Shown: piece after piece, positions 3,557-50,772 of the stretch
How positions within the stretch are numbered: the first letter of the stretch is position 1
Layout of the letters: the number at the start of each line of letters is the position of its first letter
Assembly: GCA_964555845.1 (NCBI GenBank)
Contig: CAZKUA010000006.1
Coordinates: forward strand, 8,215 to 72,214
Source of the DNA: an uncultured Candidatus Peribacteria bacterium
Lineage (GTDB): Bacteria > Patescibacteriota > Gracilibacteria > BD1-5 > UBA2023
Length of the DNA: 64,000 bases
Direction of reading: 5' to 3'
Program-made: the position numbers and the translations under genes
Notes under the pieces: model-generated
Databases searched by the model: none
What the model saw: the letters and a program-made list of their open reading frames with translations, nothing else
What the model was told of the DNA's origin: nothing

Positions 3557-3787
3557 ATGGTTAAATCAAATTATAAATATATTTCTTGAAAGGAATTTAT
3601 CAAAAAACTTAATGTTATTTTTTGAGTTGAAATTTTATCTCAAAAATGAAGTCATATCAAAATTAAATTAAAAAGTAATTGAATAAAAACTATTATTCCA
3701 AATCATAAAGAATTGGCTTATTGAACTTTTTCTTGAATTTTAAGTCAACTAAGAATTAATGAAGAAGAATTTTTAAAAATAATGTAA
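3557..3787 (+). CDS. hicA: HicA-like mRNA interferase toxin, 76 aa
   Basis: GKEFIKKL...GSHIKIKL...IIPNHKELAYGTFSGILSQL is the YcfA/HicA pattern. Confidence 0.7.
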
Positions 3788-3909: not shown

Positions 3910-4821
3910 ATGGTAAATAAAAAACCGGGGAATAATGGGAATTTAGGCGATGTTACTTGAGTAAATCAAGAATTATTAAATGCAGTAGAAGCCGAACAAA
4001 ATAAAACTGCTTTATTAATTCAGGATTTATTAAAAATGGCTGAAGATTATGAGAAAAGTATTTCTGAATCTACCGCACAAACTGCCGAACAAGTAGAAAA
4101 AACCAAGAAAACGGTGGAATTACTGCTTGATTTATCTGCAAAAATAACCAATCCAGACAATGATATTTGTGCTGATATTAGTAGTCAATCACTTCATGTA
4201 ATTGGAGAAGCAATCAAAAATCAGCAGTTTTTTGCATCTCAACTTATAGAAAAAAATCAAGAAATTACTAATTTAAAAATACAAACACAGGAATTGACTC
4301 ATAAGGCTTTTTATGATGAACTTACTTGACTAGGAAATAGACATTTATTCAAAAAAACTTTTCTTGCATTCAAGAATGATTTTGTAGAAAAATGACAAAT
4401 ATTTTCAATGGCAATGTTTGATTTAGATGATTTTAAACAAATAAATGATCAATATTCTCATGAGGTATGAGATAAGGCTTTGAATTTTTTTAGTAATAGA
4501 CTAAGGGATTTTTTCTCTGAAAAACTTTGAGAGAAATGAATTTTATTAAGATTATGATGAGAAGAATTTGGTGTATTATCTCAGATCTGAAAAAAAGAGA
4601 TGTATAATTTAATGGAATCTTTTAGAAAAAAAGCTAGTAAAACATATGAATTAAAGCACAAAAAACCTTGAGAGCCAGAAGAAAAAGAGCAAATAAAATT
4701 AACTTTTTCTTGATGAGTAGTTGAATTTAAAGATAAATTAAGTGCAAATCAAATTCATAAAGAGTGTGGCGAAAAATTAAAAGAAGCTAAAAAGAAATGA
4801 AAAAATGTTATTATCAAATAA
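3910..4821 (+). CDS. GGDEF-domain diguanylate cyclase with coiled-coil N-terminus, 303 aa
   Basis: Motifs DELTGLGNR, FDLDDFKQINDQYSHEVGDKAL and RLGGEEFGV are present. The GG of GGEEF is tga tga at 4555-4560. I counted 13 in-frame TGA. Confidence 0.85.
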
Positions 4822-4892: not shown

Positions 4893-5900
4893 ATGCCTTC
4901 CTCCCATAAAAAAACACATGGATTATTTGCTGTAACAGTCGCTATAATCTGAAATTTTATCATAATGATTCTTAAATTTATCTGATTTTTTTTATCAGGC
5001 TCTGGAGTTTTATTTTCTGAAGCAATTCATAGTGTCGCTGATACTTCAAACCAAGTCTTGCTTATGGTGGGACTCAAAAAATCCAGAAAAAAAGCAGATG
5101 CGAATTTCTCTTATTGATATTGAAAAGAAAGATTTTTCCGGGCGATTTTATCAGCTTGTGGGATATTTTTTATATGAGCCGGGGTTACCGTTTACCACTC
5201 CATAGAAAATTTCCTACATCCAATTATTATTGAAAATTCATTTTATGTTTTAATAATTTTAGCTATATCTTTTATTGTAGAATCTATAACTTTATTGATA
5301 GCTATAATTTCAGTTTATGATAGGCAAGACTGATTACTAGAAAGTATAAAAGAGGCAGATAATGCTTCAAAAGCAGTAATACTTGAAGATTCAGTTGCTG
5401 TATTTTGAGTTTTAATAGCTTTTGTGAGTATTTTACTTACAAATTTAACAGGAAAAACTTATTTTGATTCAATTTGATCTTTGATAATTTGAATTTTGCT
5501 TTGAATTGTGGCAATTATTTTGATTATGGAAAATAAAAGTTATCTTCTTGGAAGAGGAATAGATGAGGAATTAAAAGAAGATATAATTGAAACCATAAAA
5601 ACAGATAATTTAATAGAAAAAATTATAGATTTTAAATCAGAAGTAATCGATATAGATTGTTATATTATCAAAGTAGAAGCAGAATTTAATGGATCTTCAC
5701 TGATGAGAGAAATAAATCATAATTGATTTTTTCAAGATGAGTATGAATATATAAAAGAAGATTACAATGAATTTTTAAAATTTTGTGTAGATTATGCTGA
5801 TAGAATTCCTAGAATTATTGGTAAAAGAATTGACGCCCTAGAAAAAAATATCAAAGAAAAACATCCAGAAATTAAACATATTGATATTGAGTTGAATTAG
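4893..5900 (+). CDS. Cation diffusion facilitator (CDF) family metal efflux transporter, 335 aa
   Basis: About six TM helices, the motif SEAIHSVADTSNQ, and a C-terminal cytoplasmic domain. The frame matches track ORF 5508-5726. Confidence 0.8.
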
Positions 5901-5906
5901 AAAAAA

Positions 5907-5936
5907 TTGACTTTTCTCAAAAAAAATAGATAATAT
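5907..5936 (+). promoter_or_regulatory. Candidate sigma70-type promoter upstream of the histidine kinase
   Basis: TTGACT (5907-5912), 17-18 nt spacer, then ATAATA/TAATAT. Confidence 0.35.
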
Positions 5937-6079
5937 AACTCTTCGTTAAAAACGAATGAAATTATATAAAAACAAATATTATGAAAAGGAGGGTGTTCTT
6001 TAACATAATATTTTTTATTTAATATAGATTTTTCCAAAGATTATAAAATATAAAAATATATAAAAATTAACTCTTTTAT

Positions 6080-6084
6080 GGAGG
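6080..6084 (+). promoter_or_regulatory. Strong Shine-Dalgarno site (GGAGG) 7 nt before the ATG at 6092
   Basis: Sequence tatGGAGGtacgaaaATG. Most neighbouring native genes have no comparable SD. Confidence 0.7.
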
Positions 6085-6091
6085 TACGAAA

Positions 6092-7666
6092 ATGAAGAAT
6101 CAAGGGAATTTGATACCCATTAATGATTCAAAAACAAGTAGTTTTCTCTCCATAACCCAGACAATACTTTTGTGGTCTTTTTTGATTGTAGGTTTTGCTG
6201 GATGGGAGGCATACCACGCTTATCAATTTAATATAGAAAATGCCCTGGACGTCGCTCGTGATAGCCATAATAAAGATTTGGCTTACAGGCGTTGGGGAAA
6301 TGAGATTGGTGGGGTTTATGTACAAGTTACAGAAAAAACCCAACCAAATCCACTGCTTTCCGGGGTTCCAGAAAGGGATATTATAACTCCTTCTGGCAAG
6401 CATCTTACATTAATGAATCCTGCTTATATGATTCGTAAAGTGTATGATGCAAACAAGGAAAGTTATGGTCTTTTGGGTCACATAACTAGCCTCAATCCAA
6501 TTCGTAAGGAGAATGCTCCCGATAGCTGGGAAACAACTGTTTTACAAAAGTTTGAAAAAGGCGATATTAAGGAATATTTCTCTAAAGAATATATTGGAAA
6601 TGAGGAATATCTCCGGTATATGCGACCAATATTGGTTGATACAAAATGCCTCAAATGTCATGCAAAACAAGGATACAAAGCTGGAGATATTCGTGGTGGC
6701 ACAAGCATTTCTGTACCATTAAAGCCATATAAACTCAAATTCCTTAAGAATTTATTTTGGATAATCTCCCTTTATGGGATAATTCTGGTATTGGGTATAA
6801 TGTACATAACATTGTGTCATAAAAAATCTCTGCAAAATACCAGAATTCGCAAGGAATTTGAACAAAAACAGCAAAAACTCGAAGAAAGACTTCATAAAAT
6901 CCAAAAGCTCGAAAGTCTTGGGGTTTTGGCTGGAGGCATAGCTCATGATTTCAATAATATTTTGATGGTAATTTATGGGAATTGTGATATGATTACTATG
7001 CATCCAGATCCATCACTCACAAGTGAACGAGTTTGTCAGATAAGGCATGCTGCAAAGCGAGCATCTGAAATTTGTAAAAATATGCTTGCCTGTACTGGTA
7101 AGGGTTCAATTAAGAAAAAAAAGATAGATTTGGTGAGGCTGGTTAATGACACTATTGATCTTCTGAAGCCAAAGATAGAGATTAACATTTCTCTTAATTT
7201 CACTCAAAATCCAGAGCCACTTTACACTAACGGCGATATTGATCAGATTCAAGAAGTAATTATGAATTTGATTATAAATGCTATAGAGGCCATTGGTGAG
7301 AATAAGGGCCAAATTACCGTAAGACTCACCCAAAATGGTTTTTCGGGTAAAGACTATTTTGAAGAAGATATTTCGCCCGAGAAATATATATGTATGGAAG
7401 TATCAGACACAGGATGTGGAATGGATGAAGAAGCTCAAAAACGCATCTTTGAACCATTCTATACTACCAAATTCACAGGCCGGGGACTTGGAATATCTGC
7501 AACACTTGGAATTATTAAGCTGCATAATGGCACTTTACAGTTGCTTAGTAGACCAGGTGTTGGCACGACCTTCAGGATTTATCTTCCTGCTTTACAAGAA
7601 GATGAAAAACTTGTGGTCAAGACTAATTCTATAGTGGAGTCAAAGTCCAACAAAAAAATCAAATAA
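6092..7666 (+). CDS. Sensor histidine kinase: N-terminal TM, periplasmic DUF3365-like domain with c-type heme motif CLKCH, TM, HisKA (AHDFNN), HATPase_c; 524 aa
   Basis: Intact ORF even in the standard code, with no in-frame TGA. By my count all 38 Gly are GGN. Visibly higher G+C than the flanks; TAA stop. Confidence 0.9.
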   Translation: MKNQGNLIPINDSKTSSFLSITQTILLWSFLIVGFAGWEAYHAYQFNIENALDVARDSHNKDLAYRRWGNEIGGVYVQVTEKTQPNPLLSGVPERDIITPSGKHLTLMNPAYMIRKVYDANKESYGLLGHITSLNPIRKENAPDSWETTVLQKFEKGDIKEYFSKEYIGNEEYLRYMRPILVDTKCLKCHAKQGYKAGDIRGGTSISVPLKPYKLKFLKNLFWIISLYGIILVLGIMYITLCHKKSLQNTRIRKEFEQKQQKLEERLHKIQKLESLGVLAGGIAHDFNNILMVIYGNCDMITMHPDPSLTSERVCQIRHAAKRASEICKNMLACTGKGSIKKKKIDLVRLVNDTIDLLKPKIEINISLNFTQNPEPLYTNGDIDQIQEVIMNLIINAIEAIGENKGQITVRLTQNGFSGKDYFEEDISPEKYICMEVSDTGCGMDEEAQKRIFEPFYTTKFTGRGLGISATLGIIKLHNGTLQLLSRPGVGTTFRIYLPALQEDEKLVVKTNSIVESKSNKKIK

Positions 7667-7688
7667 AAAATATTATGCCAGAATAATT

Positions 7689-7714
7689 AAAGAGCCGCGC
7701 TTGCACGGCTCTTT
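7689..7714. terminator. GC-rich bidirectional rho-independent terminator between convergent genes
   Basis: aaagagccg-cgcttgca-cggctcttt, a 9-bp stem flanked by A/T runs. Confidence 0.75.
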
Positions 7715-7718
7715 AAAT

Positions 7719-8630
7719 TTATCAAATATTATTTCAAGAATTATTTCAGACATAATAATAAGCATATCCTGTAAATCCATCTTTTACACTTCAGCCTGGA
7801 ATATTTTTAAATTTTCAATAATAAAATCAATCTTTCGTTACAATTTCTACATGTCCATAATCTCTTCTTGCTCAACTTCAATATCATTTATTATAAACAA
7901 GAATTGCTCCGGGATTAGCCTCACGAGGATCTGAAATTCGTACTTTAATAAAATCAGAACGGTTTTCTAAAAATTCATCCCATTTATGTCAGTCTCTTCA
8001 ATTTTCAGGAAGTCATTTTATTCAAAAGGCAATTAAAGCATCTCATACACTTGCCCCACAGGCATTTCGCCCCTTTGCTTTGTATCTTTCTTTTACTATA
8101 AAATCCGATAAAGAAGTACAACTATAGGTATTTTTAGAATTTGAAATGGATTTTTTTACCTCAATTTTATTTATTGCTTGGTTATTTATATTACTTTGAT
8201 TACCAAATAAAACTGTTTGAGTTTCTTTATCACAAATTCAAGTTGGTAATAATTTATTTTCCTTTTGAAATCTTATAAGAGTTTCAATAGTTTTTCTTCA
8301 AAAAATATTATCTTCTTTTAAATTTGTTTTTAGTTTTTGATTTAATGAAGCTTGTAAATCTTTTATGGTTTTATTAATTACACCAAGCTGTTTTATGTTT
8401 CTATTTTCAAAATCAGTTTCTATAGAATTATGAAGCTCTTGTTTTTTATTTTGAGTTTCAAATATTACATCTTGTTTTTCTGGAATATAAATTTGTAAAT
8501 CTCAAGCAGTTTGGGAAGTATTTTTTACTTCTTCCTTAGATACTTCTTGTTTTTCCTCTTTTTTTGGCATTCAAATTGCAAATTTCTCATAATTATAGTG
8601 ACTTCAATCATTTAATCCTATTCTTACCAT
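7719..8630 (-). CDS. Cell-wall hydrolase: peptidoglycan-binding repeat plus CHAP/NlpC-P60-like cysteine peptidase, 303 aa
   Basis: TIETLIRFQKENKLLPTGICDKETQ is PG_binding-like. NACGASVGDAL (Cys) and YGHVEIV (His) fit a CHAP peptidase. The frame was checked at 8045. Confidence 0.65.
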
Positions 8631-13394: not shown

Positions 13395-15326
13395 ATGCAC
13401 AATCTTCTACAAAGAGAATCTATTAAGATTATTATAAATGCACTTAAGAAATGATATGTAGTTTTCTTTCTGGGACTTATTGCTACGGTTTTTGGCTCAA
13501 TTATCTCGATTATACTTCCGTATTTTGCCAAGCTGGAACTTGACCAGTTGGTAGAGAAAAAAACAGCAGTTTTTTTTGGCATAAATTTTGTTCCTTTTCA
13601 TTTTTTTCTGCTTATACTTGTAGTTATTTTTGTTATATCTTTTTTAGATAAGATTATTTCAGAAGTTATTCAATGGTTTTTAGAAGAACGAGAGGAAATT
13701 TTCACTCACGAAACACAGCTTATTTATCTGAATAGAATGTCTCATATGGAAGTTGGACTCTCGCTTTCTGAGGGTTTTCAAAATATTTTACGTTTTGTTT
13801 CAGATAAACTTGGAAATATATTGAAAACCATTCTTGGTATACCAAAATGAATGCTGGGCATGACAATTCAGTTTATCGGAATAAGCTCAATTCTTCTTTC
13901 TATTAATTATATGATTTTTATTGTGGTGCTTTTTGGAGGATTTGTTACTTTTATTTTGGATAAAATAAAACATCATGATGATATGCAAAAATGAAATGAT
14001 CCGGAATTGAAAAGAATAGGTCAAATTACATGGTCAATTCCATGGGAATTACAAAGAAGTCTTGCGGAACTTTCCCGTAATGGAGCTACTAAGAAAATGC
14101 TTAACTCGTTCACTCAGGCAATACATAAAAAACAAGTGCTTTTACGAATATATCAAAAAAAGAATATTTGGACACAATCTTTTATTTTTATAGTTGATAA
14201 TTTTATATCTTTTCTTGTGAAAGCATGAGTCGCATATACTGTTTTTCAGGGGACTCAATCAGTCTGAGTAATGACAATGGCAGTTTTATATATTTCTAAA
14301 CTTTCTTCGCTTTTTCGTGAGAGTTCAAAAATCTTTTTTGATTTCAAAACTATAGAATTTGATCTAGATCTTTTTGACGAATTTCTAAAATTTATCAAGC
14401 CTGCATGAATAGAAAAGGGAATTATAGTTACTTCTGAAATTATATTTAGGTGAGTTTCATTTTCATATCCAAATACTCATGCAATGGAACAATCTTTTTA
14501 TAATATTATTAGGGAAACTCTATCAACCCTAAAGAAATGATCATCGGGATATCGAACATGGGTTATAGATGAAATGAAAAAAGATATTAAAGAATTTGAT
14601 AATAAAATTGAAGAAGAAACAGGAATAATATTAAAAGATTTTAGTTTCACTTTTGTCCCCGGAAAAATTTATGGTATTGTTGGAAAAAATTGAGCAGGAA
14701 AGACAACACTTATAACACTTTTATCTGGATTTTATAGATCATATAAAGGAGAAATTCTTTTTGATAAAGTAAACACAAGAAATTGGAATATGGAAGCATT
14801 CGCGAAAAATATATCTGTTATTTCACAATCTCCTTATATTTATAATGCCTATGGGGATTCATCTATTCGAAATAATTTAACTCTTGGTATAGATAGAAAT
14901 GTATCTGATGAGGAAATGTATGAACTTCTTGAAACATTTTGACTTGCAAAAAAAGTAAGAAAATCTATTAAAGGACTTGATTCTGAAGTAAAAAATGAAA
15001 TCGATCTTTCCGGAGGTCAATACCAACTTTTGGCAATTATTCGCATAATCCTACAAGATCGTCCTATTTTAGTATTTGATGAAGGAACCAACCAGCTTGA
15101 TGCCGAAAATGAGGCACTCGTGATGAAATATCTCCTCAAAAAATGTCATTCAAAAATCATCTTTTTTATTACTCATCGCATGAATACAATTGCCAGGGCT
15201 GATGAGGTTCTCTGTATCGAAGATTGAATAATAAGCGCTCATGGAAAACCTAAAGATCTCCTAGAACAAAATGATAATCCATATGCACGATTTTATAGAA
15301 CTCAAATTTTGCATGAAGAGATATAA
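13395..15326 (+). CDS. ABC exporter, fused permease and ATPase, 643 aa
   Basis: Walker A GKNGAGKTT, signature LSGGQYQ and Walker B LVFDEGTNQLD. The frame matches track ORFs 13548, 14007 and 15030. Confidence 0.8.
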
Positions 15327-32656: not shown

Positions 32657-32684
32657 TTGACTCTCCAAAAATATGGACTACAAT
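32657..32684 (+). promoter_or_regulatory. Sigma70-type promoter for the first tail-fibre-like gene
   Basis: TTGACT, 16-nt spacer, TACAAT. Confidence 0.55.
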
Positions 32685-32720
32685 ACTCCAGATTTAATTT
32701 ACAATTTAATCTATAATTTT

Positions 32721-33740
32721 ATGAAAAAATTTAAAAAACCTATTTTATCAGCTGTAGTATTTTTCTCTACACTTATAGTATTATCAGTTTGATATGCCAC
32801 ATGGAATAATACCATGACTACAGTATGAACAGGAAGTGGTCTAACAGCAAATTCCTGGAATGCTATGGTAGATAATATCAATGATTTAAGCTCTAGATCT
32901 TGGTGACTTAACTGATTAGCTAGTTATTATACTGCTTGAAATGTCGGGATTGGTACGACGAGTCCTAGTTCAAAATTACATATTAGTGGCTCAGATACAG
33001 GAGTTGGTATTTTTGGAACTACTAGATCTAAAATGAATTTATGGACTACTAACCAGCCTGGTTGGCAGATAGAGGTTTGAGATGCTACTGGTAATCAAAA
33101 TGCAGGTGATCTTGGTTTTATAGAATCTTGAGTTGCTGCCAGACTAGTTTTAGCAAAAGGTGGTAATGTTGGAATTTGAACAACTGCTCCTGCTGAAAAA
33201 TTACAAGTAAATGGAAATATTCTCGCGGCAAACAATACTTCTATTTGAATTCATCCAACATATCCAACATTTTCAGCATGGTGGAGAAAATGAAGTGATT
33301 ATAGCATGTTAACAGATTGAATAGGTACATATATTAATGCTCCTTCGGCTGGTGGAGGTGTTTATCTTCGAGTTGCTAATGCTGATAGAATGATTATTTA
33401 TTCAAATTGAAATGCATGGCTTGCTGGTACTCTTACTCAAGCGTCAGATATTCGTTTAAAAAAAGAAATTTCTCAAATAGAAAATCCATTAGAAAAAATT
33501 TCTCAACTTGAAGGAGTTACTTATTTTTGGAAAGATAATACAAAAGATGCTAAACGTCAAATTGGTGTAATTGCTCAAGATGTAGAAAAAGTTTTTCCAG
33601 AAACTGTGAATACTGATGAAAAATGAATGAAATCTGTTGCATATGGGAATTTAGTTGCACCCCTTATTGAGGCAATAAAAGAACTAAAATCTCAAAATGA
33701 TAAATTGGAGGAGAGAATTAGATTATTGGAGAATAAATAA
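32721..33740 (+). CDS. Tail-fibre-like surface protein with C-terminal peptidase S74 intramolecular chaperone domain, 339 aa
   Basis: N-terminal hydrophobic anchor and Gly-rich beta repeats (NVGIGTT). The C-terminus reads SDIRLKKEI...LEGVTYFWKD...IGVIAQDVEKVFPETV...VAYGNLVAPLIEAIKEL. Confidence 0.8.
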
Positions 33741-37225: not shown

Positions 37226-38260
37226 ATGAAGCTCCCAAAAAATTTATATTCCCGCCTAACTCTAATAACTGTAGCCACAGTTGTAACTTGATATGCTATA
37301 ATATATGCATACACAAATTTACCAACTCAGGAATCTTGAAATCCTCTTACAAAAACTATTTGGAATGATGTAGTAAATAAAATAAATGATATCTGAACAA
37401 GAACTGACTGAATTACCAGTAGTGTTTGAGGAAAAGTATGAGTTTGAACTACAAATCCATATGCTAAAATACATTCAATGTGACAAACATTTATGATGTG
37501 ATCTACGCCTGACTTAAATTGGTGATCAGTTTGAAGTGTATTCCAATGAGAATTCTGAGCCGCAAGCGGAAATACCTATACAAAATTAGAATCATTTGTG
37601 AACTGAGGATCTGGGTACGGTGATTTAGTTTTAAATCCAGGATGATGAAATGTTAATATTGGTCCATATGAATTATGAGGAAGTAAATTAAAAATTGTAC
37701 AACCTACAGATAATCTCCGGACAGCTTTAATAAAAAGCACTAGTCCAACTACATGATTAAATTTCTGATTAACAGTTAGAGCGTGAACAAATTCAGCTGA
37801 TTCAGGATTTTTAGTTATGGATAAAAATTCAACTGTATATCAATTTTATGTTAGATGAGATGGTAATGTTTGAATTTGAACAAATAATCCTTGAACAGAT
37901 AAGCTTTATGTTAACTGAACTGCTAGAGGAACTTCATGGACAAATATATCAGATCAAAGATATAAAAAGAATATAACTCCAATAAATAATTCTCTAGATA
38001 AAGTATTAAAACTTAATTGAGTAACTTTTGATTGGAGAGTCGATGAATTTAAGAATAAAAATTTCCCAGAATGAAAACAGGTTTGATTTATAGCCCAAGA
38101 AGTGGAAAAAGTAATCCCTGAAGTTGTAACAACTGATGGAGAATGATATAAATGAGTAGAATATGCGAATATTACTGCATTACTTGTAAATGCAATAAAA
38201 GAACAACAAAAGCAAATTGAGGAATTAAAAAGCGAGATAAGGGAATTTAAAAATAAATAA
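37226..38260 (+). CDS. Tail-fibre-like surface protein with S74 chaperone domain, paralog of 32721-33740; 344 aa
   Basis: SDQRYKKNI...LNGVTFDWR...VGFIAQEVEKVIPEVV...VEYANITALLVNAIKE. It shares the N-terminal WN..V..IND motif with its paralog. Confidence 0.8.
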
Positions 38261-38311: not shown

Positions 38312-38815
38312 TTATTTACTCATCATCGGACAATTTCCGCTATTTCCACCTCTCATTCATCCTCTTCCTCCACCTCTTTTTCCTCACATTTTACCTCACA
38401 TTCCACCTTGACCAAAAGCTCACATTTTAGCTGTAATAGCTCTATCTTGGATAGATTTTACAGTTGCGGCATCAGTTGATGTCATTGTTACCTTTGTTCC
38501 ATTAGCTAATTTTTCTCTTTTTACAGTAATTAGAGAATTAGCTGGAGTTTTTGCTTGATTTTTATCAAACATTGATTGCATATGAGCTAAAGTATCTGCA
38601 TCAGTTGTTGTCATAGTTATTTCAACCCCATTTGCAATATTGTTCACAGTTCTTGTGATTTTAGATGCATATAAGCCTTGATTAACTGCTCCCGAATTAT
38701 TTCTTTGAGCAAAATTTCCTCCTGATGACATTTGTCATCTTGCCGCGTATGTAGATGATACAAGTATTGCACCAAGTGCTACAACTCAAGCGGTAATTAA
38801 AAGTGCTTTTTTCAT
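38312..38815 (-). CDS. Secreted protein with internal duplication and a Gly/Met/Arg-rich C-terminal tail, 167 aa
   Basis: Signal peptide MKKALLITAGVVALGAILVSSTYA, two copies of V.ITMT.TDA.T, and the tail GQGGMGGKMGGKRGGGRGGMRGG, which is rich in TGA. Confidence 0.6.
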
Positions 38816-38884
38816 AATATATAAAATTAATAATAAATAAAAGTTTAAATTCAAGCTTGACCGAGAGATAAGGAAGGGCATTCT

Positions 38885-38908
38885 GTCATTCCCGTGAAGA
38901 CGGGAATC
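38885..38908. repeat. GTCATTCC...GGAATC hairpin repeat copy
   Basis: gtcattcccgtgaagacgggaatc. Confidence 0.8.
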
Positions 38909-38978
38909 TATTAAAATCAAAATTACTTTCTTCTCTCTCAAAAATTAATACGAAAGAGTGAATTTTTTCTTTCAAAAA

Positions 38979-39027: not shown

Positions 39028-40059
39028 TTAATTTCTCTCAAGATATTTTACTATTTTATCTGAATTTTCATTTTTCATTCCTCTTAATACCCCAAGTGCT
39101 ATACTTTTTAATTCATAAGATTTTCTAAAAATATCATTATATACTATTTCTGGATATAATTTAAACATAATTTCTAATATATCTTTAATTGACCTATTAT
39201 TTTTAAATTTTTCTATAATAACTAAATATATTTTATCAGTATTTCTAACAATTTCAATATTGTTTTTATTTAAATAATCAATAACAAATAAATGATCTTT
39301 ATCTGCAAAATATTCCTCAATAATATTTTTATTTTCAGCATACACATTACCACCAATTTCAACTAATTTAAATAAAAAATCATTTCATTCATCTTGTAAA
39401 ATTTGCTGAGAGATAGCATTCATCCATATATATGTATACCCTGATTTTTCCGCAAGTTTTAGAAGAAATTCTTTATCATTTCTAAGCTCTAAAGGAAGAG
39501 TCTTTCATATATTTTGAAATGTAACTCCGGCATTAACAAGTTTCATAAAGAAATTTCTATTAAGGATTTTTTTCTCATATAATTCATTCGTAATATCTAC
39601 CTTTTCTTTTATTTTTTCAGGTCCCATATTTAGCTTCCCATTAGGACTATGATAGCCACTATAATTCAAGACCACTTCTCTTTCTTCTTGAATTCCATTA
39701 AATTCCCCTTTTGCTATAATTTTTGCTAAAATTTCTTCTTCATTTAACATACTGTCATATAATACATCCATAGTATTTAGTCATTCAGTTTTTCCGTGGC
39801 GAATATTTTTGTCTGCCTGCCTTTGGGCCTCCATAAAGTGTTTGTCTGCATCTTTGCGGACAAATCCGGTTTCATCTTCGGTATTTATGAAGTCATCACG
39901 AAAAGCACGTGGCAAATCTTCCACTTTTTTATATTTTGGATCACTTGGATTAAAAAGTATTTGAGCCACACTTTTTCTTGTAGTTTGTTCTACAATTAAT
40001 TCTCAAGTAGTATCTATTTCTTGTTTTCCAGCATTAGCTGGATTAGGTGTATTAACCAT
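39028..40059 (-). CDS. Hypothetical protein, 343 aa, possibly with DUF4116-like repeats
   Basis: Three track ORFs (starts 39345, 39771, 39969) share a frame and join through TGA. LRNDKEFLLKLAEKSG resembles DUF4116. Confidence 0.5.
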
Positions 40060-46309: not shown

Positions 46310-47461
46310 CTATATATTCAATAAACTTTGTCTTAATTCATCTCTTTCAATTTTCTGTAATCTCTCTTGTTCTTTTCTTGCTTGCTCTTCGGCTTCTTTT
46401 CTCTTTCTTTCTTGTTCCATCTTTTCTTCTGCCTCCTTTTTAATTCTATATTGCTCTGCAATTTCTTGTAATCTCTCTTTTTCTTCATTCTCTAAGAAAA
46501 TTTTATATTCTTCTTTATTCATATTATATTGAGATTTTTGTTCTCTCTCAAATTCATTAATTTCATCTCAAAAATATTTCATAAAATGATTATTTGCCCT
46601 AAGATTATCAGTTGGCATACAATCAAGAAGTCATTTCTCTCCATTTTTTCTTAAAGTTGCTTCGATAAAGACTTTTGTTCAATATTCTTTTAAATTATAT
46701 CAAGAATCATCACAGTATTTTATTATCATAGCGCTTGCTAGAGACTTATTCATCATACATTTTTCAAGATAACTGTTAAATATATTTCATACTCTATAAA
46801 TACTTATACATCTTTTACTTCTATAAAAGCTATTTTCATTTTTTCTATCTTTTTCACTTAACATAAACAAAAACAGTTCATCATCTTCAGTTGTTCTCCA
46901 ATCAGTTGGTATCATAAGAATTTCTCGCATATTATCACTCGCGTCAATTCTATTATAGAAATTTTGGTATAAAGCCCGTCTAGCTTTTCTATAAATAATA
47001 TATGAATCATCCGAGCGTTCTGCATTCGCTTTATTGGCAAAGTCATATAAGAAATTTATTGCTTCTCATAATTCAGGTTGAGTTTGAAGATACTTAATAT
47101 ATATATCTAATTTCTTTAATTCCTGCGGATTTCTTAATTCAAATTCTTCTTTTTCTTTGATGAGTCTTTCGGTTTCTTTATCTCTTTTTATTCTATCTTC
47201 TTCAGCTTTTCTCTCTTCAGCTATTCTTAATTCCTCTGCAAGTCTTAATTTTTCTTCTAATTCTTTTTCAAACTCTATTTTTTTATTTAAGAATTCTCCT
47301 GATTTTTCTTGTCATTTTAATATCTCGGAAGCTCTTCATATGAATATTGATTTTATAATTCCTAATTTATTTTCCCTAAAAGGCTTCTCAATATATGCCA
47401 TTTCCTCGGCTATTTCATAATCTATTACACGACCGTCTGTATCTAAAAATTTCGTTGTCAT
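46310..47461 (-). CDS. Hypothetical coiled-coil protein, 383 aa; N-terminal module paralogous to 40084-40779
   Basis: MTTKFLD...IDYEIAEEMAYIEKPFRENKLGIIKSIF...ASEILKG. In frame with track ORF 46310-46522. Confidence 0.55.
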
Positions 47462-49713: not shown

Positions 49714-49744
49714 AAATCCCACAGGCGCTCAGCCCATGGGATTT
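49714..49744. terminator. Candidate hairpin between convergent genes
   Basis: aaatccca-15 nt-tgggattt followed by a T run. Confidence 0.45.
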
Positions 49745-49772
49745 CAAATTTTTTTATCATACGAGTGGAAAT

Positions 49773-50639
49773 CTAACTTCAGATCCCACTCACAATAATT
49801 TTGATGTCTTCGGACCTAAGGAGACCGAAACCAAGTTGGTTCAAAATCTCCATATTGGCTAGTTCCAGAGCGTCCATTCTGGATATTCCTGTCCTTATAT
49901 TTATTTGATGAAAATCTCCTTGTCCCAATATCGCCTTGTAGGCCTCATGGTTTTGAGGTCGAAATTCGACATGGAGATTCCCGTCGAAATGCTCTTCCTT
50001 TCTCCATCCTGATTCTTCAGAGCTGAAGATACTGATTTTGGCAGGAATTTCAGCCGGTTCCAGTTTTGCGACCGGGAAATACAAATCTTCCAGAGTCTTG
50101 AATCCCAAGGGAACGATTACTTCCTCTGTTGTCACTTTACCATCCGCTTTTGAAAACCACACAAAATTGGGATCAGGCTTGGATAAGCTTGAAGATATCG
50201 ACCAGGTATTGATAGTTAAGGCAATAACAACAAACACTGGAAGATATTTCCTGTGTTTATCCCACAAATATCCTCCGAAAATTGCAAAGAGAGCCATGAG
50301 ACAAAAGCTAAATCCTACTATTGTAATAACAGGACCATTCCCAAAAATAACACCGCAAATAGAAATAATAATACCAATGATACCAAGAAAAAGAGTTTCT
50401 CCACTATTAGGCAATGATAGTACAAAAATGAAAACCCCGATAATGAGATTGGTTAAAACCAACCTTTCTATTGATATCTGAAAATGTGGCTGGTGTAGCC
50501 CATAGTAGGCGATACCAACCAGTATTGCAGTCATCATTATTGTCAGCATTGTGGAAAGCCGATTTTCTGGCTTCCAGATAAGGTTAAGGAACGAAGAAAC
50601 AGACCATTGTGTTTTTGGTACAACATTTGTTGCTTCCAT
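49773..50639 (-). CDS. Membrane protein of unknown function (4-5 TM helices plus soluble C-terminal domain); 288 aa in table 25, 286 aa in the standard code
   Basis: Intact ORF in the standard code with no internal TGA. By my count all 22 Gly are GGN. G+C is higher than the flanks. The standard-code TGA stop (49779-49781) reads as Gly in table 25, so translation would continue to the TAG at 49773-49775. Confidence 0.75.
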
Positions 50640-50646
50640 GATTTTT

Positions 50647-50654
50647 CCCTCCTT
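50647..50654 (-). promoter_or_regulatory. Strong Shine-Dalgarno site AAGGAGGG 7 nt upstream of the ATG at 50639
   Basis: The plus strand reads ccctcctt. Confidence 0.7.
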
Positions 50655-50716
50655 GCGGGATATTTTATTTTTGTCTTGATATTTGTATTCGCTGAAAATT
50701 ATTTCCAGTAATTCTA

Positions 50717-50744
50717 CTTATAATCAAAAACATATTTTTGTCAA
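50717..50744 (-). promoter_or_regulatory. Sigma70-type promoter for the membrane-protein gene
   Basis: On the minus strand: TTGACA, 16-nt spacer, TATAAG. Confidence 0.5.
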
Positions 50745-50772
50745 TAGAAAATTTGGGATTATTTTGGTAAAT

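What the first reader, a model, noticed from the sequence alone, without database searches (positions are those of the whole stretch)
5981..7716. TGA-free, GC-richer, Shine-Dalgarno-bearing histidine kinase looks like an import from a standard-code donor
The 524-codon kinase is the longest intact ORF in the standard-code track. It has no in-frame TGA, and by my count all 38 glycines are GGN. For comparison, the neighbouring 303-codon GGDEF gene uses 13 TGA. G+C is visibly higher than the flanks. The gene carries a canonical GGAGG site 7 nt before its ATG, which most native genes here lack, and it ends at a GC-rich terminator. Its sensor domain has a c-type heme site (CLKCH, DUF3365-like). That site would need heme and a cytochrome c maturation system, which is unexpected in a reduced CPR genome. 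No response regulator is adjacent. The gene is either a recent cross-code horizontal transfer or a chimeric assembly join.
Basis: partly seen in the sequence, partly recalled or inferred. Interest (0 to 1): 0.78.

Follow-up and report, generated by a model that had tools for sequence, protein, structure and literature searches.

The report
Imported TGA-free sensor kinase cassette
A bacterium that reads TGA as glycine carries a real, working-looking sensor kinase gene that came from a standard-code bacterium. The gene has been inherited by several related lineages and still contains no TGA, so it marks gene flow across a genetic-code boundary.

Summary
ORF 6092-7666 (524 aa) has 0 TGA against 38 GGN. 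In the other 52 genes, 57% of glycine codons are TGA (P about 1e-14). The kinase has 36.6% G+C against 27.4 +/- 3.1%, a GGAGG 7 nt before the ATG (only 2 of about 55 genes have one), a hairpin terminator, and a CLKCH haem-c motif in a Tll0287/sCache_heme domain.

It is not an assembly chimera. The same CDF-leader-kinase junction occurs in contigs from other samples.

It is foreign, but it is not a one-off recent import. Two other Gracilibacteria lineages carry orthologues at the same site. The three form a 100%-bootstrap clade, and the nearest standard-code homologues are 46-48% identical. All are under purifying selection (dN/dS 0.10-0.17) and all are TGA-free (0/38, 0/46, 0/27).

The ancestor was a hybrid sensor-kinase-receiver. 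The window copy lost its receiver through a 342-bp in-frame deletion, and another lineage lost the haem sensor.

The slot after the CDF gene is a hypervariable hot spot that also holds other SD-bearing, TGA-free cassettes.

A flank-calibrated neutral model makes the continued absence of TGA mildly improbable (about 1e-2 to 1e-5). This is suggestive but not conclusive.

The parts
4893..5900 (+). Left flank: native cation-efflux (CDF) gene. It has 11 TGA-Gly and no SD. This gene anchors the hot spot in all relatives.
   Evidence: Orthologues with at least 90% aa identity occur in L006, L093-L099.
5901..6091 (+). AT-rich leader of the kinase cassette. It is conserved in L089 (about 98%) and L006 (about 80-90% in blocks). 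It is absent from relatives that lack the kinase.
5907..5934 (+). Sigma-70-like promoter match: TTGACT, 16 nt, GATAAT (10 of 12). This is a consensus match only.
5942..5956 (+). Small hairpin TTCGTT-AAA-AACGAA. It is conserved in L089 and L006.
6004..6023 (+). Left arm of a conserved long-range inverted repeat that brackets the ORF.
6080..6084 (+). Shine-Dalgarno GGAGG, 7 nt before the ATG.
6092..7666 (+). Sensor histidine kinase ORF: 524 aa, stop TAA, 0 TGA and 38 GGN, G+C 36.6%.
6140..6202 (+). Predicted transmembrane segment 1 (about residues 17-37).
   Evidence: Hydropathy scan.
6344..6718 (+). Extracytoplasmic Tll0287-like / sCache_heme sensor domain (residues 85-209). dN/dS is 0.15 against L089.
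6647..6661 (+). CLKCH haem-c attachment motif (residues 186-190). It is conserved in L089 and in standard-code homologues.
6734..6820 (+). Predicted transmembrane segment 2 (about residues 215-243).
6926..7087 (+). DHp/HisKA region. The phospho-acceptor is His285 (6944-6946).
7232..7591 (+). HATPase_c catalytic domain. The N, G1, F and G2 boxes are intact.
7652..7660 (+). Deletion scar: a single AAAAAAATC. In L089 two copies lie 342 bp apart and flank the receiver domain. The deletion is in frame (..NKKI|K*).
7658..7677 (+). Right arm of the long-range inverted repeat. It spans the TAA stop.
7687..7716 (.). GC-rich hairpin terminator shared with L089. In the window its T-tail is replaced by the 3' end of the convergent gene.
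7719..8630 (-). Right flank: native PG_binding/CHAP gene with 19 TGA-Gly. Its 3' end also abuts a different TGA-free cassette in L096.

Best explanation
The window comes from a Gracilibacteria (BD1-5) genome that reads TGA as glycine. The kinase is a genuine chromosomal accessory gene of foreign origin.

An ancestor of this clade acquired a hybrid sensor kinase with three parts: an extracytoplasmic haem-c Cache sensor, a kinase core, and a fused receiver. The donor was a standard-code, Shine-Dalgarno-using bacterium that makes c-type cytochromes (Desulfobacterota-like by homology). The gene landed in a hypervariable slot just downstream of a cation-efflux gene.

The gene has since been inherited, lost, or trimmed in different lineages:
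- Full length in L089.
- Sensor deleted in L006.
- Receiver deleted in this window, by a 342-bp in-frame deletion between two AAAAAAATC repeats.
- Absent in L093, L096 and L099.

It has stayed under purifying selection throughout. The foreign hallmarks (no TGA, GGN-only glycine, CGN arginine, raised GC3, SD, hairpin terminator) are residues of the donor. Third positions drift toward the host composition faster than the first-position GGA-to-TGA change accumulates.

Shown here: foreign affinity, shared site, domain losses, purifying selection, and TGA-free status in three lineages.

Inferred: the direction and single timing of the transfer, the protein acting as a membrane redox/NO-type sensor kinase, and whether haem is attached in this host.
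For: Host code and contrast with native genes.

Foreign affinity:
- The best full-length homologues are 46-48% identical. They lie in 50-54% G+C standard-code contigs next to ResB/CcsA, a cytochrome gene, and receiver genes.
- The three Gracilibacteria kinases form a clade in 100 of 100 NJ bootstraps among 60 kinase cores.

Shared site and anatomy:
- L006 is syntenic (CDF upstream; the 346-, 202-, 220- and 577-aa genes downstream) and has a homologous leader and N-terminus.
- L089 is 92.5% identical in nucleotides, carries the receiver, and has the same terminator.

Purifying selection: dN/dS is 0.097 (window-L089), 0.17 (window-L006), and 0.15 for the sensor domain alone. Native flanks give 0.13.

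Patchy presence among relatives whose CDF is at least 90% identical.

Other SD-bearing, TGA-free, GC-rich cassettes in the same slot:
- The 121-aa gene has 0/17 TGA and 49-54% G+C.
- The 194-aa fusion has 0/22 TGA.

High expression does not explain a TGA-free gene. EF-Tu, ribosomal-protein and ATP-synthase genes of a related Gracilibacterium use TGA for 40-100% of Gly and have no SD.

The join is real: adjacent accessions in two assemblies, plus contigs from other samples.
Against: - Kinase divergence between the two subclades is two to three times that of the flanks: dS 1.45 and dN 0.25, against dS 0.68 and dN 0.09.
- The L006 copy is almost fully host-like at third positions (GC3 0.20), while the window and L089 copies sit at 0.31. 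Both facts are awkward for one import followed by clock-like vertical descent.
- A Markov model of Gly-codon turnover, calibrated on the flanks, expects about 2.6 + 1.9 new TGA since the split. The joint P(none) is about 1e-2. It is about 2.5e-3 when the L089 branch is included, and about 5e-5 if the kinase's own dS is used.
- One gain needs at least two or three independent losses.
- No donor closer than 48% identity was found, so the donor taxon is not identified.
Confidence: 0.6

Rival explanations
1. Code-neutral cassette. The kinase, and the other cassettes in this slot, belong to a gene pool that keeps moving between code-25 Gracilibacteria and standard-code bacteria. Copies that acquire TGA drop out of circulation. 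Different alleles have entered the same hot spot more than once.
For: - All three orthologues are TGA-free despite dS up to 1.45, and the stop codon is always TAA.
- The kinase is more diverged than its flanks.
- Presence and absence vary within both subclades.
- Divergence between window and L089 is mosaic: 3.9% left and 10.4% right of about position 6904, Fisher P = 1e-7. This shows recombination among alleles.
- There is a precedent in code-11-compatible, TGA-free phages targeted by Gracilibacteria (PMC10746230).
Against: - No relative above 48% identity exists outside these Gracilibacteria among 5.8 billion proteins.
- Nothing was found in IMG/VR, INPHARED or PLSDB.
- No integrase, transposase or phage gene lies nearby.
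- The leader is AT-rich and carries the native-type TTAAC motif.
- The left junction is identical in both subclades.
- The statistical excess is modest and is weakened by gene-to-gene spread in TGA use.
Confidence: 0.15
2. In-situ selection against TGA in this gene. Translation of this SD-led mRNA would be disfavoured by UGA, for instance through a special translation regime or a condition in which tRNA-Gly(UCA) is limiting.
For: - SD presence and TGA absence are perfectly associated across about 115 genes in five loci.
- The L006 copy is ameliorated at third positions and still has 10 GGA and 0 TGA. Native genes have a TGA:GGA ratio of about 5:3.
Against: - No mechanism is known.
- The SD has decayed to GGGGG in L006, yet TGA is still absent.
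- The SD/TGA association is equally expected from shared foreign origin.
- The second import keeps a read-through TGA stop, so UGA is decoded in SD-led mRNAs.
Confidence: 0.07
3. A one-off, very recent import into this genome alone.
For: Strong compositional and codon contrast with neighbouring genes.
Against: - Orthologues occur at the same site in L006 and L089, with dS 0.28-1.45.
- G+C of 36.6% is far below that of every identified homologue's genome, which implies long amelioration or an unsampled low-GC donor.
Confidence: 0.04
4. Assembly chimera or contaminating fragment from a standard-code organism.
For: The gene would bin as foreign by composition and code.
Against: - It is flanked on both sides by TGA-rich native genes on a contig of about 75 kb.
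- Adjacent accession numbers occur in two separate assemblies.
- The same junctions appear in contigs from other samples and assemblers.
Confidence: 0.01
5. A native, highly expressed gene whose codon bias avoids TGA.
For: Some native genes have a low TGA share (0.22-0.27). EF-Tu is at 0.40 and ATP synthase c at 0.09 in a relative.
Against: - No native gene reaches 0 with more than 11 Gly codons.
- Ribosomal-protein and ATP-synthase genes use TGA heavily and lack SD.
- A sensor kinase is not expected to be highly expressed.
- The phylogeny is foreign.
Confidence: 0.01

Closest known systems
sCache_heme (DUF3365 / Tll0287-like, PF11845) hybrid histidine kinases of Desulfobacterota, Nitrospirota and Campylobacterota
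   Same: - Same architecture: TM, extracytoplasmic Tll0287-like domain with CXXCH, TM, DHp, HATPase_c, and a receiver in the orthologue L089.
- 46-48% identity over the full length.
- Per PMC12889525, signalling-fused members bind haem c covalently and behave as NO sensors.
   Different: - It resides in a code-25 CPR genome. Published Gracilibacteria genomes lack an electron-transport chain (PMC6851277).
- The window copy has lost the receiver.
- No partner regulator or cytochrome-c maturation gene lies in the 64 kb.
Horizontally acquired genes in genomic-island hot spots, recognised by atypical composition and codon use
   Same: - Raised G+C and foreign codon use.
- Own promoter-like site, SD and terminator.
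- Patchy presence among close relatives at one chromosomal slot, with neighbouring alternative cassettes.
   Different: The transfer crosses a genetic-code boundary. A categorical marker (absence of one sense codon) adds to the usual compositional signal, and it has persisted through substantial divergence.
Code-11-compatible (TGA-free) phages predicted to infect Gracilibacteria and Absconditabacteria (Liu et al. 2023, PMC10746230)
   Same: - DNA associated with code-25 hosts that lacks in-frame TGA and ends genes on other stops.
- The window's second import (49773-50639) shows the 'TGA followed by a close back-up stop' pattern described there.
   Different: - This is a chromosomal cellular gene, not a phage, with no phage or mobility genes nearby.
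- That paper reports integrated prophages as uniformly TGA-dense, which is the opposite of this integrated cassette.

Membership tests
Sensor histidine kinase (HisKA + HATPase_c) | ATP-binding catalytic domain with N, G1, F and G2 boxes | tested here: met
   HATPase_c scores 83.4 bits against a cut-off of 26.4. NLIINA is at 392, DTGCGM at 439, FEPFYTTK is present, and GRGLG is at 463. These columns are invariant across homologues.
Sensor histidine kinase (HisKA + HATPase_c) | DHp domain with a phospho-acceptor His | tested here: inconclusive
   HisKA scores 25.7 bits, just under the 26.9 cut-off. The H-box GGIAH(285)DFNN is conserved in all homologues aligned. Phosphotransfer was not tested.
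sCache_heme / Tll0287-like (PF11845) | Match to the family profile above the curated cut-off | tested here: met
   78.5 bits against 24.1, residues 85-209.
sCache_heme / Tll0287-like (PF11845) | Canonical CXXCH haem-c motif at the conserved position | tested here: met
   CLKCH at residues 186-190 aligns with CLKCH in P0002, P0003 and P0004.
sCache_heme / Tll0287-like (PF11845) | Extracytoplasmic location between two membrane helices | tested here: met
   Hydropathy peaks at about residues 17-37 and 215-243 flank the domain. This rests on a prediction only.
sCache_heme / Tll0287-like (PF11845) | Covalently bound haem, which needs a cytochrome-c maturation system in the host | not testable with these tools
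   No ResB/CcsA homologue lies in the 64-kb window. The rest of the genome was not available. The sensor domain is under purifying selection between window and L089 (dN/dS 0.15) but is deleted in L006.
Hybrid histidine kinase (kinase + fused receiver) | C-terminal Response_reg domain | tested here: not met
   The window protein ends ..NKKIK*. Orthologues L089 and L006 carry the receiver, and the window has a 342-bp in-frame deletion.
Horizontally transferred gene from a standard-code donor | Nearest relatives lie outside the host lineage | tested here: met
   Apart from two Gracilibacteria orthologues, all top hits come from standard-code genomes. Those that carry a source name are Desulfuromonadales, Geomonas, Nitrospirae and similar. 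Clade support is 100/100.
Horizontally transferred gene from a standard-code donor | Atypical composition and codon use relative to the host | tested here: met
   z = 3.0 for G+C and 3.4 for GC3. Arg AGA is 19% against 75% in native genes, and TGA is 0% against 57%.
Horizontally transferred gene from a standard-code donor | Patchy distribution among close relatives | tested here: met
   Present in the window, L089 and L006. Absent in L093-95, L096-98 and L099, all with CDF at least 90% identical.
Assembly chimera | Junctions unsupported outside the one assembly | tested here: not met
   The junctions are reproduced in L006 and L089 and in two GenBank assemblies. Read mapping was not possible.
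Code-11-compatible mobile element (sensu Liu et al. 2023) | No in-frame TGA and non-TGA or backed-up stops | tested here: met
   0 TGA and a TAA stop in all three orthologues.
Code-11-compatible mobile element (sensu Liu et al. 2023) | Phage or mobility genes, or copies in phage, plasmid or standard-code genomes | tested here: not met
   No relatives in IMG/VR, INPHARED or PLSDB. No close standard-code copy was found. No recombinase lies in the neighbourhood.

The most novel reading that the evidence does not exclude
The kinase cassette, and the other SD-bearing, TGA-free cassettes in this hot spot, are kept free of TGA on purpose. They would belong to a code-neutral gene pool that continues to be exchanged between code-25 Gracilibacteria and the standard-code bacteria they live on. 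Alternatively, they are under selection to stay readable in both codes. The genetic-code barrier would then be leaky in a structured, selectable way for cellular genes, not only for phages.
Probability: 0.2. Interest if true: 0.8.

Novelty: new member of a known kind. Interest (0 to 1): 0.5.

Why it matters
- **Direction of transfer.** Transfer from standard code into code 25 is the permissive direction across a code boundary. A TGA-free gene is read correctly, and a TGA stop merely reads through to the next stop.
- **Markers for imports.** This locus gives concrete, datable examples. It also gives three categorical markers for finding imports in recoded genomes: no TGA, a Shine-Dalgarno site, and a read-through TGA stop.
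- **A possible clock.** The rate at which imported genes pick up TGA could serve as a clock for code assimilation. It could also test whether some genes are held code-neutral.
- **Binning.** Such genes look like contamination to composition- or code-based filters, but they are genuine parts of CPR genomes.
- **Biology.** A haem-c (NO/redox-type) sensor kinase kept under purifying selection in an organism thought to lack cytochromes raises the question of where its haem and its signalling partner come from.

Tried and rejected
- **Genome-contig scan with the flanking 346-aa HD protein.** It returned only 33-47% relatives in Clostridia, Treponema and Saccharibacteria.
- **Viral-contig scans with the kinase and with the 194-aa cassette protein.** Nothing found.
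- **PLSDB and INPHARED by DNA and protein.** Only generic kinase-domain hits below 43% identity.
- **Rfam on 5700-7900.** Only sub-threshold eukaryotic snoRNA/miRNA noise, so the leader holds no known riboswitch.
- **tRNA scan of the window.** None found, so tRNA-Gly(UCA) could not be shown here.
- **Apparent 17-nt direct repeat TTTTCTCNCAAAAAAATA at the cassette borders.** It is low-complexity and not above chance, so I dropped it as evidence of site-specific insertion.
- **Arg CGN-to-AGR conversion at outgroup-conserved positions, as a control for first-position synonymous change.** It is underpowered: only about 3 eligible codons and about 0.5 events expected.
- **High-expression codon bias as a cause of TGA avoidance.** Rejected by the EF-Tu, ribosomal-protein and ATP-synthase genes of a related genome.
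- **More distant Gracilibacteria (CDF 63-66% identical; L100, L101).** They are not syntenic here, so the age of the hot spot cannot be pushed back.
- **Representative-library search with the second import.** Only 9 weak relatives, which was uninformative.
Full report
**What the window is**

With TGA as a stop, only 16% of the window lies in ORFs of at least 100 aa. With TGA as sense, coding density is about 90%. TGA makes up 57% of glycine-position codons (702 of 1237). In orthologue comparisons it aligns with Gly 26 times and with Trp once. The host therefore uses code 25.

The exact kinase protein is in GenBank as 'Sensor protein [uncultured bacterium (gcode 4)]' (EKD65890.1), and again as HBA44987.1 in assembly GCA_003488725.1. 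The neighbouring cation-efflux protein has close relatives labelled Candidatus Gracilibacteria.

**Checking the observation**

- The ORF is 6092-7666 (+), 524 aa, and is the longest standard-code ORF in the window.
- It has 0 TGA and 38 GGN, with P = 1.5e-14 against the native TGA share.
- G+C is 36.6% and GC3 is 30.9%. Native genes give 27.4 +/- 3.1% and 17.4 +/- 3.9%.
- GGAGG sits 7 nt before the ATG. Only one other gene in the window has such a site.
- A 13-pair hairpin follows at 7687-7716.
- Pfam finds Tll0287-like (78.5 bits), HATPase_c (83.4 bits) and a borderline HisKA (25.7 bits against a 26.9 cut-off).
- CLKCH is at residues 186-190, between two hydrophobic segments.
- No receiver domain, second kinase or ResB/CcsA homologue occurs in the window's 60 predicted proteins.

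**Not a chimera**

The kinase and the CDF gene have consecutive accession numbers in two assemblies: EKD65889/EKD65890 and HBA44986/HBA44987. The evidence from other samples carries more weight.

- A Logan contig from a different run (L006) carries CDF, a homologous leader, a homologous kinase, and then the same 346-, 202-, 220-, 577- and 643-aa genes as the window.
- A JGI contig (L089) carries the same leader, kinase and terminator at 92.5% nucleotide identity.

**Where it came from**

The best full-length homologues (P0002-P0004, 46-48% identity) lie in 50-54% G+C, standard-code contigs. These contigs also carry a stand-alone receiver gene immediately upstream, and in two of the three loci also ResB/CcsA cytochrome-c maturation genes and further hybrid kinases. 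The named hits are Desulfuromonadales, Geomonas, Desulfobulbaceae, Nitrospirae and similar.

The three Gracilibacteria kinases are each other's closest relatives. They form a clade in 100 of 100 NJ bootstraps among 60 kinase cores. The origin is foreign and, most simply, single. The donor itself is not sampled.

**What happened to it afterwards**

- L089 encodes the full hybrid protein of 638 aa: sensor, kinase and receiver. It has 0 TGA among 46 Gly codons.
- In the window, the receiver is missing. In L089 two AAAAAAATC repeats lie 342 bp apart and flank the receiver. The window has one copy at 7652-7660 and reads ..NKKI|K*. This is an in-frame, repeat-mediated deletion. It explains why this kinase has no receiver of its own, either fused or encoded alongside it.
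- L006 keeps the receiver but has cleanly deleted the Tll0287 domain between the two membrane helices. It has 0 TGA among 27 Gly codons and 28.2% G+C.
- dN/dS is 0.097 (window-L089), 0.17 (window-L006) and 0.13 for the receiver (L089-L006). Native flanks give 0.13. The sensor domain alone gives 0.15.

These are maintained genes, not decaying pseudogenes.

**A hypervariable slot**

Relatives whose CDF protein is at least 90% identical differ in what follows the CDF gene.

| Locus | Content after the CDF gene |
|---|---|
| L099 | Nothing; CDF runs straight into the 346-aa gene |
| L096-98 | A 121-aa gene with its own TTGACA-17-TATAAA promoter match, AAGGAGG site, 54% G+C, 0/17 TGA and a hairpin terminator, then the CHAP gene |
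| L093-95 | A 194-aa fusion of a zinc-ribbon ORF with that gene (0/22 TGA, 43% G+C) |
| L089 | The kinase, followed by the zinc-ribbon ORF and the 121-aa-type ORF |

Across about 115 genes in five loci, the genes with an SD are exactly the genes depleted in TGA.

**Is the persistent absence of TGA more than history?**

I built a five-state Markov model from Gly-codon pairs in the window-L006 flank orthologues. GGA/TGA is the commonest synonymous Gly exchange there, at 21 pairs.

| Assumption | Expected new TGA (window + L006) | Joint P(none) |
|---|---|---|
| Time scaled to flank divergence | 2.6 + 1.9 | about 1e-2 |
| Same, with the private L089 branch included | – | about 2.5e-3 |
| Time scaled to the kinase's own dS | – | about 5e-5 |

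Two observations point the same way. The kinase is two to three times more diverged than its flanks in both dS and dN (1.45 and 0.25, against 0.68 and 0.09). The L006 copy is host-like at third positions yet has 10 GGA and no TGA.

Three points argue against over-reading this result:
- Native genes vary widely in TGA share (0.22-1.0), so a gene-specific equilibrium could be low.
- The model rests on 154 sites.
- An Arg-codon control had no power.

High expression is not the explanation. EF-Tu, ribosomal-protein and ATP-synthase genes of a related Gracilibacterium use TGA for 40-100% of Gly and have no SD.

I therefore treat active maintenance of code neutrality as a live minority reading at about 0.2. 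Its precedent is the TGA-free phages of Gracilibacteria (PMC10746230). Weighing against it are the absence of any copy outside Gracilibacteria and the absence of mobility genes.

**Likely function**

By homology, the protein is a membrane sensor kinase. Its extracytoplasmic domain belongs to the haem-c Cache family. That family was recently shown to bind haem covalently and, when fused to signalling modules, to behave as an NO sensor (PMC12889525).

Three things cannot be decided here:
- whether haem is attached in this host;
- what the kinase phosphorylates now that its receiver is gone;
- whether the host has any cytochrome-c maturation system.

A published closed Gracilibacteria genome lacks an electron-transport chain. 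It does retain two-component systems, competence genes and pili that may take up DNA, which offers a plausible import route (PMC6851277).

**An extra anatomical feature**

A 17-20-nt inverted repeat brackets the ORF. One arm lies in the leader (6004-6023) and the other spans the stop codon (7658-7677). It sits at homologous positions in L089 and L006. There is one compensatory change, and the helix is extended on opposite sides in the two lineages.

Shuffles reach 17 perfect pairs in 0 of 2000 trials (window) and 1 of 2000 (L006). The repeat does not coincide with the indel boundaries, and the other cassettes lack it. Its role is unexplained. Candidates are mRNA end-pairing, an invertible segment whose promoter match lies outside, or a relic.

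**Verdict**

This is a real and well-characterised example of a known process: acquisition of an accessory gene at a hot spot. It happens to cross a genetic-code boundary and to preserve categorical donor marks through considerable divergence. It is of moderate interest as it stands. It would be of high interest if the TGA-free state proves to be maintained.

Noticed in passing
window 49773-50639 (-), with promoter and terminator at about 49715-50745: A second import-like gene of 288 aa, membrane-associated, with no Pfam match and 39.7% G+C. It has a TTGACA-17-TATAAG promoter match, an AAGGAGGG site 8 nt before the ATG, and a hairpin terminator. Its only TGA is evidently the original stop codon (..SGI TGA AGT TAG), now read through as Gly-Ser to a back-up TAG. 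Only 9 weak relatives exist in 1.8 billion representative proteins.
   Followed up: partly
window 6004-6023 and 7658-7677; L089 71-90 / 2067-2086; L006 2083-2099 / 3641-3657: A conserved long-range inverted repeat brackets the kinase ORF, with one arm in the leader and the other across the stop codon. There is one compensatory substitution between lineages. The repeat is significant against shuffles (0/2000 and 1/2000). Its function is unknown.
   Followed up: partly
L093 11130-11714; L096 about 8137-8502 (+); L089 2219-2486: The same hot spot in relatives holds another SD-bearing, TGA-free, GC-rich (49-54%) cassette. It encodes a 121-aa Ala/Gly-rich protein with no Pfam match. It is preceded by a 22-nt palindrome that overlaps a TTGACA promoter match, and in some genomes it is fused to a zinc-ribbon ORF. 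The stored gene call on the minus strand of L096 (183 aa) looks like an antisense artefact of the GC-rich insert.
   Followed up: partly
window, upstream of 16 of 60 genes, e.g. before 9820, 13395, 16551, 37226, 40779(-), 46310-47461(-): A TTAAC motif sits 14-25 nt upstream of start codons in about 27% of native genes, where about 2.6 genes would be expected by chance. Native genes lack Shine-Dalgarno sites. This may be the native promoter or ribosome-recruitment signal. The kinase leader carries it twice (6000 and 6066) in addition to its SD.
   Followed up: partly
window 5934-7660 against L089 1-1727: Divergence is mosaic: 3.9% left of about window position 6904 and 10.4% right of it (Fisher P = 1e-7). 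This indicates recombination between kinase alleles within the population.
   Followed up: partly
window 32673-33740 (+) and 37226-38260 (+): Two paralogous Gly-rich secreted proteins end in a Peptidase_S74 'chaperone of endosialidase' domain (E = 1e-20). This domain is typical of phage tail-fibre or spike proteins. The genes use 13 and 30 TGA-Gly, so they are fully code-25.
   Followed up: partly
window 13395-15326, 38312-38941, 39028-40059: Three native-looking genes have unusually low TGA shares (0.22-0.27; binomial P = 2e-4 to 5e-3) and no SD. TGA use is over-dispersed among genes, which matters for any neutral test. These could be older imports or genes under codon selection.
   Followed up: no
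window 3910-4821 to 4893-5900, against L093 7431-9987: Relatives carry a 536-550-aa GAF + HD(-GYP-like) gene between the GGDEF gene and the CDF gene. The window and L006 appear to lack it. The upstream side of the locus therefore also varies in c-di-GMP signalling content.
   Followed up: no
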